Source: a virus (taxonomy: Duplodnaviria > Heunggongvirae > Uroviricota > Caudoviricetes). Taken from it: DNA of 4,413 bases. Positions 1-4,413 of the stretch are shown one piece after another; the stretch's first letter is position 1; each line of letters starts with the position of its first letter. The translations under genes were made by a program, and so were the position numbers. Below the pieces are notes generated by a model. It was given only the letters and a program-made list of their open reading frames with translations. It ran no database searches and was not told the origin of the DNA. The stretch lies in the IMG/VR virus record IMGVR_UViG_2778261454_000003. The stretch is one strand, 5' to 3'.

Positions 1-40
1 CGCTTACCGCTCATGGGCACCTCTCTTTAAGCCATCTTAA

Positions 41-400
41 ATGACTCTGAGGTGTCTGTTAAACCCGTGGCGATTCAGTATGAGCATTATCAGTACTGCT
101 AAAGGTGCTGCAAATGGACAATTCCACGGCGGCATAGATGAGCTACCAGCAGGGTATGATAACAAATCATTCGTACTTAAAGCTGGTGAACGTGTAGTAC
201 AACCTGAAGCTAACAAGAAACTAACAGCATTTCTTGATAAACATGAAGGGGGTAGTAGTTCTGGTGATGTGACCATTAACGCACCTTTGATCATTCAAGG
301 TGATGTAGCTGGTGATGATAAGAAATTCAATGAAATGTTGAAGAAACATCAAAACAGTGTAGCACAGGCTTACAGAAGCTCTATTAAGCGTAATTCATAA
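41..400 (+). CDS. Lambda-type tail tape measure protein, C-terminal domain-like ORF (possible orphaned fragment; start uncertain, ATG 41 or ATG 80)
   Basis: Open frame from ATG 41 to TAA 398-400, followed at once by a hairpin terminator. The translation (Gly-rich stretch, then ELPAGYDNKSFVLKAGERVV ... DVTINAPLIIQGDV ... FNEMLKKHQNSVAQAY) resembles in pattern my recollection of the lambda gpH C-terminus (unverified, no search run). Position just upstream of gpM-like/gpL-like genes matches lambda H-M-L order. Hand-counted GC about 43% on one 60-nt stretch. No clear Shine-Dalgarno before either candidate ATG, and an in-frame TAA at 38-40 closes the frame upstream. Confidence 0.55.
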   Translation: MTLRCLLNPWRFSMSIISTAKGAANGQFHGGIDELPAGYDNKSFVLKAGERVVQPEANKKLTAFLDKHEGGSSSGDVTINAPLIIQGDVAGDDKKFNEMLKKHQNSVAQAYRSSIKRNS

Positions 401-428
401 GAAAGCCCGATTAGGGCTTTCTGTTTCT
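400..428. terminator. Bidirectional intrinsic (rho-independent) terminator hairpin between convergent genes
   Basis: Perfect inverted repeat GAAAGCCC (401-408) / GGGCTTTC (414-421) with 5-nt loop GATTA (409-413), extendable by an A400:T422 pair. On the + strand it is followed by the T-rich tract TGTTTCT (422-428). On the - strand it is followed by TTATGAATTA (complement of 391-400). It sits directly after the + ORF stop at 398-400 and overlaps the stop codon of the - strand ORF (411-413). Confidence 0.6.
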
Positions 429-1037
429 CATATATTCCTTTTTTATTTTATATACAACCTTACGCATTCTATTTGCTTTTATCTTTCTAAGTAATTCACT
501 GAAACTAAAAATTGTGCTAATCGCAATGAGGAAAGTGTACACAAAAAGATTAATTAGCTTTCCGCTTTCAAAGTCCCAGAAAGGTTTGAATATGAAAACC
601 CCAACAAATAGCGGAAGTAAAAAACATCCAATCAATGAACTAACTACAGCAACACTAAGAATGTCTCCTTTTGAACTTTTTTTGATTTTACCATTCTTTG
701 GATTGTAAGCATCTCGTAATCCTTTATAAATTTTCAGTTCTAAGTTGAATTTCTCCAACTGAGAATAAAAATTCTCAATTTGTTTAATAGTTGTAAATTT
801 TAAATTCGTTTTGAAGTTGAATTTTGCTATGTCATGTTCAGCTTGCTCTATTTTAGCTAATTTTTCATTGAAATATTGCTTTTCGCCAATGAATATGCCC
901 CATATTTTATTAGCGACTATAGCCATGCTTCCACTACGATAGACAATATAAAGTGTGACCACGACAATCATCACATTAAGTAGTATTGCGGTTATTGCTG
1001 GAAATGACTTTATAAAAAGCTCAAAAGAATCTTTCAT
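411..1037 (-). CDS. Hypothetical integral membrane protein (208 aa, predicted 3 TM helices, basic C-terminal tail); moron-like antisense gene, candidate superinfection-exclusion/defence protein
   Basis: A 627-nt open frame in very AT-rich DNA (hand-counted about 25-33% GC on three 60-nt stretches), where stop codons are frequent by chance, so coding is likely. Hydrophobic segments at residues 12-33 (FPAITAILLNVMIVVVTLYIVY, nt 939-1004), 126-150 (ILSVAVVSSLIGCFLLPLFVGVFIF, nt 588-662) and 162-179 (LINLFVYTFLIAISTIFSF, nt 501-554). A charged, heptad-like region lies between them (residues 52-110). The C-terminal tail (residues 184-207, nt 417-488) carries about 12 Lys/Arg in 24 residues. Opposite orientation and lower GC than the flanking tail genes. 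No recognisable Shine-Dalgarno before ATG 1035-1037. No family recognised. Confidence 0.7.
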   Translation of the reverse strand: MKDSFELFIKSFPAITAILLNVMIVVVTLYIVYRSGSMAIVANKIWGIFIGEKQYFNEKLAKIEQAEHDIAKFNFKTNLKFTTIKQIENFYSQLEKFNLELKIYKGLRDAYNPKNGKIKKSSKGDILSVAVVSSLIGCFLLPLFVGVFIFKPFWDFESGKLINLFVYTFLIAISTIFSFSELLRKIKANRMRKVVYKIKKEYMRNRKP

Positions 1038-1054
1038 GGATAAATACTCTAAAC

Positions 1055-1068
1055 AAGGAAGTCGAGGA
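1055..1068 (+). promoter_or_regulatory. Ribosome-binding site for the gpM-like gene
   Basis: AAGGAAG (1055-1061) and GAGGA (1064-1068) lie 4-11 nt upstream of ATG 1073. Confidence 0.5.
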
Positions 1069-1069
1069 C

Positions 1070-1098
1070 ATTATGGCATCTTTTTCAAATAATGTGAA
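1070..1098 (-). promoter_or_regulatory. Candidate sigma70-type promoter for the minus-strand membrane-protein gene
   Basis: Read on the - strand: -35 TTCACA (complement of 1093-1098), a 17-nt spacer, then -10 CATAAT (complement of 1070-1075) preceded by TG one base upstream (TGcCATAAT, extended -10-like). The predicted transcript start near 1062 gives a leader of about 25 nt before ATG 1037. Sequence pattern only; the -10 overlaps the start codon of the divergent gpM-like gene. Confidence 0.25.
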
Positions 1099-1630
1099 GG
1101 TTACAAACTTTCAAATTAAAAGTACTGAACCAATTTACTCTAATCAAACATGGTCAGGGCAACGTATCATGAGATCAACGGGTATTCAGTTCTACAATAT
1201 TCAGTTCACACTCAATTTCAATCCTTCAGCACTAACTGAAGTTAATAGCTTTTTAGCTCAGTACGCACAAGGTAAACCATTTACTTTCTCACTTGGTGTA
1301 GCTGGTATATATCATGGTACACAAACTGGCTCAGTTACCAGTACTGGATTAATTCAACCTGGAAATATGATTATCCCAACAAGTAGCAATACATTAGCTG
1401 TTGGTGAATGGATTCAATTCACTAATCATAACAAGCTATATCGAATTGTAGAGCGTGCTGGAACAAGTATTACTATCTTTCCCGCACTACAGAATACAGT
1501 ACAGGCAAGTGAAGTAATCAAATATAACAACCTCATGATAGAGGCGGTATTAGATCCTGATAATGATTACACAATGCCAGTAGGTAACATTATGAACATC
1601 ACACTAAAGGCTACAGAGAACATACAATAA
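1073..1630 (+). CDS. Minor tail protein, lambda gpM-like (185 aa, with a C-terminal extension relative to lambda gpM)
   Basis: ATG 1073 with a Shine-Dalgarno just upstream; stop TAA 1628-1630 overlaps the next start (TAATG). The N-terminal ~80 residues (WSGQRIMRSTGIQFYNIQFTLNFNPSALTEVNSFLAQYAQGKPFTF) resemble in pattern the remembered lambda gpM core (YSQR ... KTYSVTLSVPREEATVLESFLEEHGGWKSFLW). Synteny: lies between the tape-measure-like ORF and gpL/J-like genes. Hand-counted GC about 40%. Confidence 0.8.
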   Translation: MASFSNNVKVTNFQIKSTEPIYSNQTWSGQRIMRSTGIQFYNIQFTLNFNPSALTEVNSFLAQYAQGKPFTFSLGVAGIYHGTQTGSVTSTGLIQPGNMIIPTSSNTLAVGEWIQFTNHNKLYRIVERAGTSITIFPALQNTVQASEVIKYNNLMIEAVLDPDNDYTMPVGNIMNITLKATENIQ

Positions 1631-2253
1631 TGAATGCTAGTACATACACAAATGCTAATCTTCTCAAGTACTGGAAATTAGTTAGAGGAACTACCAAAAC
1701 ACAACTAAGCCTAATGGATATTATGAGTTTAGGCGTTTTCGTAACGTGTTTTGATGTACTACCAAAAGGTACAAATGGTTTTCACTGGACTGATTCACTA
1801 ATTGATATTCCTCTTGATGGTTATCAATATACAAGTTTTCCCGATATTATCAGTGGTTTACTACCTTCATACTCTGAACAAAAGGGTATTACGAATGATG
1901 CTATTAACTTCAAGATAAGTAATGTAAATGCTTCAGTACGTGCTCTTGCTTTGGGCGGGTTCCTTAAAGATGCTCAGATGAATATCAAGTTAGTTATCTT
2001 GAATCCATATGATAGTACTGTAATTGATTCAATGCTTATGTTTACTGGATTCATTGATTACATTCAAGCCGTAGCAGATCCAAATGCTAAAACCAATGAA
2101 ATGACTGTATATGTCAATTCTGTATATAAGAAACTTGATCGTCAACCAGCTCTAATAGCTGCTAATTCAGTATATCAATCTTATTACAAGGGTGATGAAT
2201 ACTTTTCATTACTTGGTCAGGTTAACCAAAATCAAAATTGGAAATACAAATAA
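1630..2253 (+). CDS. Putative minor tail protein, lambda gpL-like by position (207 aa)
   Basis: ATG 1630 overlaps the upstream stop (TAATG), indicating translational coupling; stop TAA 2251-2253. Assignment rests mainly on gene order (after gpM-like, before the small tail protein and J-like gene) and size. Sequence resemblance to lambda gpL is weak and from memory; the C-terminal Cys cluster of lambda gpL is not evident. Confidence 0.7.
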   Translation: MNASTYTNANLLKYWKLVRGTTKTQLSLMDIMSLGVFVTCFDVLPKGTNGFHWTDSLIDIPLDGYQYTSFPDIISGLLPSYSEQKGITNDAINFKISNVNASVRALALGGFLKDAQMNIKLVILNPYDSTVIDSMLMFTGFIDYIQAVADPNAKTNEMTVYVNSVYKKLDRQPALIAANSVYQSYYKGDEYFSLLGQVNQNQNWKYK

Positions 2254-2657
2254 TGAAAAATCTACATAACGAAATTATGAATATCATTCAAACAGCAATT
2301 GATAGCCCTTATCAGTTCGGAACTAATGATTGTAACATTATAGTACTCCGATTAATTGACTTAATTAACGGTACTACAACCCTATCAGATCGCCAATATA
2401 CGAGCGTTAAAGAGGGTATAGCGGGTTTAAACAAGGAAGGATGGAACCACACAGGGGAAATAGTTGAAGCCTATTGTAAGCCCGTACAACACGTTATAGA
2501 TGGTGATATCTGGCTAGATCCTGATAACCCTCTAATCATGGCAGTAGTCGTATCAGGTCGTGTACTTGGTGTTACTGCTAATCATGACGGTTTTGAACTT
2601 CAACCGAAGCCAACAAAAGGAACATATTATAGAGTAAGGAAACATATAGATGGGTAA
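2253..2657 (+). CDS. Small tail-tip protein (134 aa from ATG 2253; 139 aa if ATG 2238), possible papain-fold (NlpC/P60-like) peptidase, gpK-like by position
   Basis: ATG 2253 overlaps the upstream stop TAA 2251-2253 (same TAATG coupling as at 1630); the alternative ATG 2238 would overlap the upstream gene by 16 nt. Stop TAA 2655-2657. Contains a Cys in a G-x-x-D-C context (YQFGTNDCNIIV) and downstream His residues (WNHTGEIVEAY, QHVIDGD, ANHDGFEL), as expected for NlpC/P60 Cys-His catalytic residues. Motif-level evidence only; no JAB/MPN-like domain is apparent. Confidence 0.7.
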   Translation: MKNLHNEIMNIIQTAIDSPYQFGTNDCNIIVLRLIDLINGTTTLSDRQYTSVKEGIAGLNKEGWNHTGEIVEAYCKPVQHVIDGDIWLDPDNPLIMAVVVSGRVLGVTANHDGFELQPKPTKGTYYRVRKHIDG

Positions 2658-4308
2658 GAGTTTAGGCGGCTTTTTTGGAGCCATTATAACAGCGGTCGTA
2701 GTTGCTGCTGCGGTCTACTTTTCAGGAGGAACGGCATTAGCTGCGGTTGGTTGGGGTGCTGCGGCAGGGGCAGTAAGTTTAGTTGCTACATCTATGCTAG
2801 CTCAAGTAGGGGTAACGGGTTATGGGGATGTATCGGATAGTATAAGTAGGTCAGTTTCCCCAACTACCGGATTGCCAGTACTGTTTGGTGGCGATCTTCC
2901 TCATAAGAATGGTACTTCAGGCGGTTCATTTGTTCTAACTGGTAGTATTGTTAGTTGGTACAACGTACCTGATTCAGATTCACAGTACCTATTTTCTGAA
3001 CAAGCAGTAGCGTATGCGGGTACTGAAAAACATATTGAACAAATTTACATTGATAATGAAGCAGTACTATCAGCCCCAATTACGCAAGATGGAATAGTAC
3101 CGAAAACATCTATTTCTGGTAAATATGCCGATGTACTCCAATTGGAAGTACGTTTTGGTGGTGATTATACAAGTACTAAATCCCTAGCAACTCAATACGC
3201 TGGACCGAAATGGACTAATAAATTTCTTGGTAAAGGTGTTGTTAGTATCAGTACTGTTATCAAGAAAACTCAAAAATCACTTGAAAATAACATTCTCGTA
3301 AATGACCAATTCGCACTAACTGTAGAAATGAAAGGTCAACGTATCTTTGATTTTGTAGATGGTACTATTAAAGCTAGTAGTAATCCACCTTCGATTATAT
3401 ACGATTACTTAACCAATACTGTGTATGGTATGAGTATTGATCCTAGTCTTATCAATCAAGATACATTCGCAGAAACTGCGGCATATTGTGATGCTTTTGA
3501 AATGTACGCCAACGGGGCAATTAGTTATCAAAGTACATTTATGGATAACATTGAAAATATTTGTCAGAGTTTTGGCGGTATCATGTATGTACACGCGGGG
3601 CAGATATGCCTAACTACAGACCGTAAAACTGTATCTGTAGCGTCATTTAATGAGCGTAATATGGTTGGTGGTATACAGGTTAGTACTTCAGGTGTATCAG
3701 ATTATTTCAACGCCGTAGATTGTAAATTCAAAAACCCTCAATCAATCTACACAACGGATGTAGTACGTATTCCTTCAGATATTACCATTGATGAAGCAAT
3801 CCAACATGACGGGCAAGTTATAGCATTATCACGTGATTATACTTGGAGTTATGATCAAGAAGTCATAGCTAAAATGGCAAACATAGATGTACTAAAAGCA
3901 AAATATGCCCTACGTACTATCAGCTTTACTACAAGTGAAGGATGGGATTTAAAAGTATGGGATGCTATTGATGTTAGTAATGATGAACTTGCTATTTCAG
4001 GTAAATTTAAAGTACTGAATAAAGATGTTAGTACTGATCAAGAGAATATTGGCTACGTTACTATCACTGCGGTGGAGGCACCAGATCAGATGTATGATGG
4101 CGTTGATCCGGGTGTATGGTCGCCGGGTGGTGTGATTAGCTTCCCTCAGCTATCAGTACTTCCACCATCTAACCTACAGGCTGTTAAGAAAGGTAATACT
4201 ACTGCTGGTTCGGTTATTGATCTAACGTGGGATGCTTCACCAGATCCATACCTACGCGGTTATTATGTGTACTATAAACTTAATAGTTCTTTGATCCTAC
4301 CCACGTAA
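2650..4308 (+). CDS. Tail tip / host-specificity protein, lambda gpJ-like N-terminal region fused to a gpI-like Gly/Ala-rich hydrophobic N-terminal segment; ends prematurely within an FN3-like domain (552 aa)
   Basis: ATG 2650 with AAGGA (2636-2640) 9 nt upstream; overlaps the upstream stop (ATGGGTAA). Residues 1-90 (GGFFGAIITAVVVAAAVYFSGGTALAAVGWGAAAGAVSLVATSMLAQVGV ... GLPVLFGG) resemble the hydrophobic Gly/Ala-rich segment I recall in lambda tail assembly protein I. Residues about 240-330 (IIYDYLTNTVYGMSIDPS ... AAYCDAF ... ICQSFGGIMYVHAGQICLTTDR) resemble the remembered conserved J-family tail-tip domain (lambda J: WCLWDMLTHPRYGMG ... QYCDQ ... TLTFVQDR). Near the C-terminus YVTITAVEAP is followed by PPSNLQAVKKGNTTAGSVIDLTWDASPDPYLRGYYVYYK, an FN3-like beginning. 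Stop TAA 4306-4308. Lambda J is over 1100 aa, so this ORF looks truncated. Confidence 0.85.
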   Translation: MGKSLGGFFGAIITAVVVAAAVYFSGGTALAAVGWGAAAGAVSLVATSMLAQVGVTGYGDVSDSISRSVSPTTGLPVLFGGDLPHKNGTSGGSFVLTGSIVSWYNVPDSDSQYLFSEQAVAYAGTEKHIEQIYIDNEAVLSAPITQDGIVPKTSISGKYADVLQLEVRFGGDYTSTKSLATQYAGPKWTNKFLGKGVVSISTVIKKTQKSLENNILVNDQFALTVEMKGQRIFDFVDGTIKASSNPPSIIYDYLTNTVYGMSIDPSLINQDTFAETAAYCDAFEMYANGAISYQSTFMDNIENICQSFGGIMYVHAGQICLTTDRKTVSVASFNERNMVGGIQVSTSGVSDYFNAVDCKFKNPQSIYTTDVVRIPSDITIDEAIQHDGQVIALSRDYTWSYDQEVIAKMANIDVLKAKYALRTISFTTSEGWDLKVWDAIDVSNDELAISGKFKVLNKDVSTDQENIGYVTITAVEAPDQMYDGVDPGVWSPGGVISFPQLSVLPPSNLQAVKKGNTTAGSVIDLTWDASPDPYLRGYYVYYKLNSSLILPT

Positions 4309-4309
4309 T

Positions 4310-4413
4310 ATGGACACAGGCCTAAGCGAGGTTCTTGTTTTCAAATTGTTCCGGACTGAGGCCGCCACACCAACTGTGCCGCCGCCACCGATTGTAATCA
4401 CATTCGATATAAT
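4310..4413 (+). CDS. Possible start of a downstream ORF, or a frame-shifted continuation of the J-like gene (partial, runs off the window end)
   Basis: ATG at 4310-4312, one nt after the J-like stop. The +1 frame is open from 4295 to the window end (SYPRNMDTGLSEVLVFKLFRTEAATPTVPPPPIVITFDI...), including a Pro-rich linker-like motif. No Shine-Dalgarno. Hand-counted GC about 50% over 4309-4413. A minus-strand frame is also open across 4300-4413, so coding strand and reality are unresolved. Confidence 0.2.
   Translation, partial: MDTGLSEVLVFKLFRTEAATPTVPPPPIVITFDI

What the first reader, a model, noticed from the sequence alone, without database searches (positions are those of the whole stretch)
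1..4413. Whole segment looks like an excised piece of a tail module (tape-measure C-term to J N-term) between GC-richer edges
Taking the two boundary anomalies together, the lower-GC phage-like block spans roughly 41-4308 and is truncated at both ends relative to a complete lambda-type tail module, with about 50% GC sequence on both flanks. That pattern fits a prophage remnant, or a captured or domesticated tail-tip cassette, rather than an intact prophage. The flanks are only 40 and 105 nt, so this is tentative.
Basis: inference. Interest (0 to 1): 0.45.

Follow-up and report, generated by a model that had tools for sequence, protein, structure and literature searches.

The report
Prophage tail genes split by insertion sequences
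The window is one short-read contig from an E. coli prophage whose tail genes carry insertion-sequence copies; the "cut-out" look comes from the assembler stopping at those repeats, so the finding is ordinary.

Summary
A 36.6% GC phage tail block lies between about 49% GC edges. It runs from the tape-measure C-terminus through DUF6216, a Dit-like protein, a tail protein and DUF6950 to the J N-terminus. The block is 78-4291, not 41-4308.

The edges are insertion-sequence (IS) ends. Bases 1-77 are the left end of an ISEhe3-like IS3-family element. Bases 4292-4413 are the right end of classic IS3.

The window is a whole contig, NODD01000075.1, of the E. coli draft assembly GCA_002518125.1. Two other contigs of that assembly continue gene J. 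One (657 nt) holds J codons 548-715 between two IS3 ends. The other (6,255 nt) holds the J C-terminus and ten downstream prophage genes. The joins show exact 3-bp target duplications, CTT and GGT.

With the IS3 copies removed, J reads as an uninterrupted 1100 codons. The 10.8 kb is collinear with an intact prophage, with 37 substitutions and one 1-nt gap.

Intact relatives are 31-43% GC along their whole phage part, so the GC step marks IS against phage. This is an IS-interrupted, probably defective, prophage seen through assembly breaks. It is not an excised or domesticated cassette.

The left side could not be checked: the tape-measure N-terminus beyond the IS was not found. Interest is low.

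The parts
1..77 (-). Left terminal end of an ISEhe3-like IS3-family insertion sequence. It holds the inverted repeat TGAATCGCCACGG... and the first codons of orfA, whose ATG is the reverse complement of 12-14. The element extends leftwards off the contig.
   Evidence: 100% matches over exactly 1-77 to transposase or mobile-element features in phage and E. coli records. 98.7% match to the end of a complete 1230-bp copy in L008, 5738-6967.
78..400 (+). 3' part of the tape-measure gene, codons 626-732 of 732, cut by the IS at 77/78. Bases 78-80 (GTA) would be the target duplication if the insertion is simple. The ORF finder's ATG at 41 is IS-derived.
   Evidence: PHROG tape-measure families phrog_13674 and phrog_339 match the C-terminal ends of their profiles. 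The stretch aligns to L012 from 3220 within the intact 732-aa gene at 1344-3542.
400..422 (.). G+C-rich hairpin between the convergent tape-measure and DUF6216 genes; terminator-like.
   Evidence: Consensus scan, 9-pair stem with 5 G-C pairs. This is a pattern match only.
411..1037 (-). DUF6216 membrane protein gene (208 aa) on the opposite strand. It is accessory cargo in a variable slot between the tape-measure and Dit genes.
   Evidence: Pfam DUF6216, E=3e-20. Present in L012, L018 and L009, absent in L013 and L014, and replaced by a DUF726 gene in L008. Promoter-like site at 1098-1070 on the minus strand. No PADLOC or NCBIfam hit.
1073..1630 (+). Distal tail protein (Dit)-like, 185 aa, intact.
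   Evidence: phrog_1302, distal tail protein, E=3.5e-16. Same length as in intact relatives.
1630..2253 (+). Tail protein, 207 aa, intact.
   Evidence: phrog_2048, tail protein, E=7e-24. No Pfam hit.
2253..2657 (+). DUF6950 protein, 134 aa, intact. It occupies the position just upstream of J.
   Evidence: Pfam DUF6950, E=1e-9. phrog_2134.
2650..4291 (+). J-like tail tip (central fibre) gene, codons 1-547 of 1100, interrupted by IS3. Bases 4289-4291 (CTT) are one copy of the 3-bp target duplication. The apparent stop at 4306-4308 is IS3 sequence.
   Evidence: phrog_31, central tail fiber J, E=1.5e-40. The full-length 1100-aa protein P0028 is near-identical over residues 1-547. The continuation lies on contig NODD01000121.1 and starts with CTT.
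4292..4413 (-). Right terminal end (IRR, TGATCCTACCCACG...) of classic IS3. The transposase is on the minus strand and the element extends rightwards off the contig.
   Evidence: 100% match to one end of an annotated 1258-bp IS3 copy, L016 1810-1931. Thousands of IS3 matches in E. coli genomes and plasmids. The same 122 nt, reverse-complemented, starts contig NODD01000069.1.

Best explanation
The window is a complete short-read contig from an Escherichia coli draft genome. It covers 4.2 kb of the tail-tip region of a low-GC, roughly 36-kb siphovirus-type prophage.

An ISEhe3-like IS3-family element has transposed into the tape-measure gene at codon 626. A copy of IS3 has transposed into the J gene after codon 547. 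A second IS3, in the opposite orientation, sits 501 bp further into J. A third sits about 6 kb downstream near the prophage end.

These ISs are multi-copy repeats, so the assembler broke the prophage into separate contigs, each ending in IS sequence (77 nt at four of the six ends seen, 122 nt at the other two). That produces the appearance of a tail-module piece between GC-richer edges. The GC step is simply about 49% GC IS DNA against about 37% GC phage DNA.

Shown: the identity of both IS ends; the continuation of J and the downstream genes in the same assembly, with exact 3-bp target duplications; and collinearity with intact relatives.

Inferred: the left IS is also a simple insertion. The prophage can no longer build tails, because the tape-measure gene and J are disrupted. 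The insertions are recent, because no other damage is visible.
For: - Source. The window equals contig NODD01000075.1 of GCA_002518125.1. Its proteins are named as E. coli.
- Left flank. Bases 1-77 match the end of an IS3-family element at 100% and match the end of a complete 1230-bp copy.
- Right flank. Bases 4292-4413 match one end of an annotated 1258-bp IS3 at 100%.
- Intact relatives. Window 78-4291 aligns without gaps at 99.57% to L012 (E. coli) and at 99.62% to a 36-kb IMG/VR viral contig. Both carry an intact 732-aa tape measure and a 1100-aa J.
- Continuation of J, first join. Contig NODD01000121.1 of the same assembly is IS3-IRL (77 nt), then L012 7431-7933, then IS3-IRL (77 nt). It overlaps the window's last phage bases by CTT.
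- Continuation of J, second join. Contig NODD01000069.1 starts with the same 122-nt IS3 end. It then runs from L012 7931, overlapping by GGT, to 13987, and ends in another IS3 end.
- Reconstruction. Joining the three contigs without the ISs gives 10,767 nt collinear with L012, with 37 substitutions and one 1-nt gap. J then reads as an uninterrupted 1100-aa ORF.
- Composition. In the relatives, 1-kb windows across the phage part are 31-43% GC.
- Reproducibility. Another sample's contig, L002, spans both window junctions at 99.95% identity. Further contigs from other samples each cover one junction at 99.6-100%.
Against: - The contig carrying the tape-measure N-terminus of this assembly was not found. 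An IS-associated deletion on the left therefore remains possible.
- There is a precedent for such a deletion. In Enterobacter roggenkampii (L008), an IS of the same family abuts a truncated tape-measure gene with unrelated sequence upstream.
- The physical linkage of the three contigs through single IS3 copies is inferred from matching ends and target duplications. It was not read directly.
Confidence: 0.9

Rival explanations
1. True prophage remnant on the left side. The ISEhe3-like element mediated a deletion that removed the tape-measure N-terminus and the head and packaging genes. What remains would be a one-sided remnant that starts at window base 78.
For: - The left partner contig was not found.
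- A related locus in E. roggenkampii (L008) shows this kind of structure. There an IS of the same family is followed by a truncated tape measure, with unrelated genes upstream and J split into three ORFs.
Against: - Both IS3 junction pairs that could be checked in this genome are simple insertions with 3-bp duplications.
- The rest of the prophage shows no other decay.
- The failure to find the partner contig carries little weight. Only cluster representatives and named members could be listed, and the DNA collections that were scanned do not contain even the window's own junction.
Confidence: 0.2
2. One reading: the block is an excised, captured or domesticated tail-tip cassette, for example a composite-transposon-like unit mobilised between two ISs or a retained functional tail-tip module.
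For: The block is bracketed by IS ends. Four of its genes (DUF6216, Dit-like, the 207-aa tail protein, DUF6950) are intact.
Against: - The two flanking ISs are different elements, so they cannot act as a composite transposon.
- J continues across the IS3 with a 3-bp target duplication, and the downstream prophage genes follow in order in the same genome.
- A tail tip without a complete tape measure and J cannot assemble. This rests on established knowledge of siphovirus tail assembly.
- The block differs from intact phage copies by only about 0.4%.
Confidence: 0.03
3. Assembly chimera: the IS ends were wrongly joined to phage sequence by the assembler.
For: The window is a short contig from a short-read draft. 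Its ends are repeat sequence 77 and 122 nt long.
Against: - A contig from another sample (L002) spans both junctions at 99.95% identity, and further independent assemblies, including gut metagenomes, each cover one junction.
- The junctions fall exactly at the IS termini, with target duplications matching across contigs.
Confidence: 0.02

Closest known systems
IS3 (classic 1258-bp E. coli insertion sequence) inserted in prophage genes
   Same: The terminal sequences are identical to an annotated IS3. The two end pieces map 1258 bp apart on a reference copy, and a 3-bp target duplication sits at each of the two checked insertions.
   Different: Nothing unusual. One point worth noting is the density: three IS3 copies and one other IS within about 11 kb of one prophage, including two inverted copies 501 bp apart in J.
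ISEhe3-like IS3-family element
   Same: 77 nt match at 96% to the feature annotated ISEhe3 orfA in Shigella phage SfIV, and at 100% to unnamed transposase features in E. coli and phage records. The element has TGAATCGCCACGG terminal repeats and an orfA that starts MSGKRYPEEF.
   Different: Only the terminal 77 nt are in the window. The exact ISfinder name could not be determined with these tools.
Lambda-type tail-tip module (gpH, M, L, K, I, J)
   Same: The gene order is tape measure, then small tail-tip proteins, then a large J-like protein with fibronectin type III and Phage_Tail_Tip domains.
   Different: No Pfam match to the lambda M, L, K or I families. Instead there is a Dit-like protein, a phrog_2048 protein and a DUF6950 protein. 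J carries its own hydrophobic N-terminus, and a reverse-strand accessory gene sits after the tape-measure gene.
Uncultured low-GC prophage family of the Enterobacter cloacae complex and E. coli (e.g. IMGVR_UViG_3300035364_000002; the prophage in L012 and L013)
   Same: 99.6% DNA identity over the block, with the same gene order. This family shows what the intact version looks like.
   Different: Those copies have an uninterrupted tape-measure gene and J. The nearest isolated phages in GenBank share only about 26% (J) and 32% (capsid) amino-acid identity.

Membership tests
IS3 (IS3 family) | Terminal inverted repeats that begin TG and end CA and match the IS3 ends | tested here: met
   Window 4292-4413 is 100% identical to one end of an annotated IS3. 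The L011 and L017 end pieces are 100% identical to the other end.
IS3 (IS3 family) | 3-bp target-site duplication flanking a simple insertion | tested here: met
   CTT at window 4289-4291 and L011 78-80. GGT at L011 578-580 and L017 123-125. Each shows as a 3-nt overlap on L012. That IS3 makes 3-bp duplications is from established knowledge.
IS3 (IS3 family) | Element of about 1.26 kb with orfA and orfB joined by a programmed frameshift | tested here: inconclusive
   The reference copy spans 1258 bp and is annotated with a programmed frameshift. The body of the copies in this genome lies outside all three contigs.
Lambda-type tail module | Tape-measure protein upstream of the tip genes | tested here: met
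   PHROG tape-measure families match. The intact 732-aa homologue is seen in L012.
Lambda-type tail module | gpM, gpL, gpK and gpI homologues | tested here: not met
   The 185-aa and 207-aa proteins have no Pfam hit. The 134-aa protein matches only DUF6950. PHROGs instead assigns a distal tail protein and phrog_2048.
Lambda-type tail module | J-like central fibre / tip protein | tested here: met
   phrog_31, E=1.5e-40. The full-length relative carries fn3 and PF09327 Phage_Tail_Tip.
Composite transposon | Two copies of the same IS bracketing the cargo | tested here: not met
   The left end is an ISEhe3-like element and the right end is IS3. The two end sequences are unrelated.
Prophage remnant (deleted) | Essential phage genes physically missing next to the block | tested here: inconclusive
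   Right side not met: the rest of J and ten downstream genes are present. Left side not resolved.
Domesticated tail-derived system (tailocin-like) | A complete, uninterrupted set of tail genes retained under selection | tested here: not met
   Both the tape-measure gene and J are interrupted by ISs.

The most novel reading that the evidence does not exclude
The clustering of four IS copies in and near the tail genes of one prophage might not be chance. It could reflect selection to disable virion production while keeping prophage cargo, such as the separately transcribed DUF6216 membrane protein. Alternatively it could reflect an IS3 target preference for this AT-rich phage DNA. In either case an IS-fixed lineage would persist in human-gut E. 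coli.
Probability: 0.06. Interest if true: 0.3.

Novelty: already known. Interest (0 to 1): 0.08.

Why it matters
The main value is as a caution. A short contig that ends in a few dozen bases of different composition can look like an excised or captured cassette. It may only be one fragment of a larger element that was broken at repeated insertion sequences during short-read assembly. Insertion sequences disrupting prophage genes is a well-known route of prophage inactivation. The underlying phage family has no close cultured relative, but it is already common in public genomes and in IMG/VR.

Tried and rejected
- Near-identity DNA searches of the whole window against 50,697 phage records, 5,426 complete E. 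coli genomes and 72,556 plasmids matched only the IS ends. The block is absent from those collections at that sensitivity.
- I looked for the tape-measure N-terminal contig of the same assembly. I searched proteins with codons 1-626 of the L012 gene and listed members of 11 of the returned clusters. Only full-length or unrelated-genome fragments appeared.
- The predicted partner junction, TCGTTGGGTATGAATCGCCACGG, was absent from JGI metagenomes and GTDB representative genomes. The window's own junction was absent from both too, so this result is uninformative.
- PADLOC and NCBIfam scans of the window's proteins gave nothing. A weak PADLOC hit for the downstream DUF3800 protein is not meaningful.
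- A literature look-up for the size of the IS3 target duplication did not state it. That point rests on general knowledge plus the overlaps observed here.
- Three readings were considered and rejected: composite transposon (the two ISs differ), assembly chimera (the same junctions recur in independent assemblies), and a GC island inside a normal-GC prophage (the whole phage is low GC).
Full report
**What is in the window**

Six ORFs fill the interior:
- 80-400 (+): matches only the C-terminal ends of the PHROG tape-measure profiles.
- 411-1037 (-): a DUF6216 protein.
- 1073-1630 (+): a distal-tail-protein (Dit) family member.
- 1630-2253 (+): a phrog_2048 tail protein.
- 2253-2657 (+): a DUF6950 protein.
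- 2650-4308 (+): matches the central tail fibre J family.

GC is 36.6% for 78-4291, against 49.4% for 1-77 and 49.2% for 4292-4413 (profile). The compositional step is real.

**What the edges are**

A near-identity search against phage records matched only the two ends. Bases 1-77 (up to 1-81 in some records) hit features annotated as ISEhe3 orfA, transposase or mobile element. Bases 4292-4413 hit an unannotated stretch of phage phi467. In complete E. coli genomes and in plasmids the same two ends hit thousands of IS3-family copies, and nothing hit the interior.

The right piece is 100% identical to one end of an annotated IS3 whose two end pieces lie 1258 bp apart. The left piece is 98.7% identical to the end of a complete 1230-bp IS3-family element seen in a related locus. 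That element has TGAATCGCCACGG terminal repeats and an orfA that starts MSGKRYPEEF.

The phage block is therefore 78-4291. The ATG at 41 and the last five codons plus the stop of the "552-aa" ORF are IS sequence.

**Where the window comes from**

An exact-protein look-up showed that the window is the whole of contig NODD01000075.1 of NCBI assembly GCA_002518125.1. NCBI names its proteins as Escherichia coli. All 13 contigs that carry the 207-aa protein are 2-5 kb long. The six other loci returned are 99.6-100% identical to the window. L002, from another sample, spans both IS junctions, and four further loci cover one junction each. The junctions are therefore real and inherited, not an assembly error.

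**What the intact version looks like**

The 90%-identity cluster of the J fragment contains many 1100-aa "phage tail tip fiber" proteins from Enterobacter cloacae-complex species and E. coli. The tape-measure cluster contains a 732-aa protein.

Their contigs show a complete prophage: large terminase, portal, protease-capsid fusion, a Peptidase_S74 fibre, major tail protein, chaperones, tape measure, Dit, the 207-aa protein, DUF6950, J, lysozyme and further genes, followed by chromosomal genes.

Window 78-4291 aligns without gaps:
- at 99.57% to L012 3220-7433;
- at 99.62% to a 36-kb IMG/VR viral contig that has an intact 732-aa tape measure and 1100-aa J.

In these relatives, 1-kb windows across the phage part are 31-43% GC. 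Low GC is thus a property of the whole phage, not of a block within it.

**The decisive result: the rest of J is in the same genome**

Two cluster members had accession numbers adjacent to those of the window's proteins. Both turned out to lie on other contigs of GCA_002518125.1.

Contig NODD01000121.1 (657 nt) consists of 77 nt of the IS3 left end (reverse-complemented), then L012 7431-7933 (J codons 548-715), then 77 nt of the IS3 left end. Its first phage bases, CTT, repeat window 4289-4291. That is a 3-bp target duplication around one IS3 copy lying on the minus strand.

Contig NODD01000069.1 (6,255 nt) starts with the exact reverse complement of window 4292-4413. It continues from L012 7931, repeating GGT from the end of the 657-nt contig. 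It then runs through the J C-terminus and ten downstream prophage genes to L012 13987, where another IS3 left end begins.

Joining the three contigs without the ISs, and with one copy of each duplication, gives 10,767 nt collinear with L012. The differences are 37 substitutions and one single-base gap. J then reads as an uninterrupted 1100-codon ORF.

On the right side, therefore, nothing is missing. The gene is split by two simple IS3 insertions in inverted orientation.

**Why the contig looks excised**

The flank lengths fit a short-read assembler that stops inside repeats:
- 77 nt at the window's left end;
- 77 nt at both ends of the 657-nt contig and at the right end of the 6,255-nt contig;
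- an identical 122-nt IS3 piece shared by the window and the 6,255-nt contig.

The idea that 77 is the assembler's k-mer length is my inference.

**What remains open**

I could not find the contig carrying tape-measure codons 1-626 of this assembly. Scans for the predicted partner junction were uninformative, because even the window's own junction is absent from those collections.

An IS-associated deletion on the left therefore cannot be excluded. A related locus in Enterobacter roggenkampii is a real remnant of that kind. There an IS of the same family sits at a different tape-measure position, with unrelated sequence upstream and J split into three ORFs. Both checkable IS3 insertions in this genome are simple, and the prophage is otherwise undamaged. 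On that basis I put simple insertion at roughly 75-80%.

**Mechanism and consequence**

IS3-family elements transposed into the prophage, as the termini and target duplications show. A siphovirus needs both a complete tape measure and a complete tip protein to assemble tails (established knowledge). The prophage is therefore very probably defective; this is inferred. It is not a composite transposon, because the two ends belong to different ISs. It is not a domesticated tail device either, because the key tail genes are broken.

**Comparison with known systems**

The tail module resembles the lambda type in order only. No Pfam family for gpM, gpL, gpK or gpI matches, and PHROGs instead assigns a Dit-like protein.

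The nearest isolated phages share only about 26% (J) and 32% (capsid) amino-acid identity. Even so, the family is common as a prophage in Enterobacter, Klebsiella, Rahnella, Salmonella and E. coli, and it is present in IMG/VR.

**Verdict**

This is an ordinary, already-understood situation: an IS-interrupted prophage seen through the breaks of a short-read assembly. Interest is low.

Noticed in passing
window 411-1037 (-), with L012, L018, L009, L013, L014 and L008: The reverse-strand DUF6216 gene encodes a 208-aa protein; I read about three hydrophobic segments in its sequence by eye, with no prediction tool run. It sits in a variable slot between the tape-measure and Dit genes. It is present in some otherwise near-identical prophages, absent in others, and replaced by a DUF726 gene in E. 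roggenkampii. It has its own promoter-like site (1098-1070, minus strand) and a hairpin at 400-422. It looks like a prophage accessory gene (moron) of unknown function. No PADLOC match.
   Followed up: partly
L011 (NODD01000121.1) 1-657: Two IS3 copies in inverted orientation, both with their left ends facing inward, bracket only 501 bp of J (503 nt counting one extra copy of a target duplication). Recombination between them could invert that segment.
   Followed up: partly
L017 (NODD01000069.1) 6179-6255: A third IS3 copy lies at L012 position 13987, inside a 69-aa gene at the edge of the prophage. That makes four IS copies within about 11 kb of one prophage. Whether this exceeds chance depends on the genome's IS load, which I could not measure.
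   Followed up: no
L008 5738-7540 (Enterobacter roggenkampii GCA_023152375.1): A relative of the same prophage is a real remnant. A 1230-bp IS of the same family sits at another tape-measure position in the opposite orientation, with unrelated genes upstream, and J is split into ORFs of 670, 202 and 176 aa.
   Followed up: partly
window 173-262 (L012 3315-3404): Ten of the window's 18 differences from L012 fall within 90 nt of the tape-measure 3' end. This suggests a small recombination patch rather than evenly spread mutation.
   Followed up: no
window 2650-2830: The J-like protein begins with a glycine/alanine-rich hydrophobic stretch of about 55 residues. This is also the GC-richest part of the block (up to 51%). 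It may take the place of a separate lambda gpI-like protein, since no such gene is present.
   Followed up: no
(phage collection): The best isolated-phage match for both the J fragment (26% identity) and the capsid (32%) is Escherichia phage DCP80, a 141-kb record. This prophage family therefore has no close cultured representative, despite being widespread in Enterobacteriaceae genomes.
   Followed up: no
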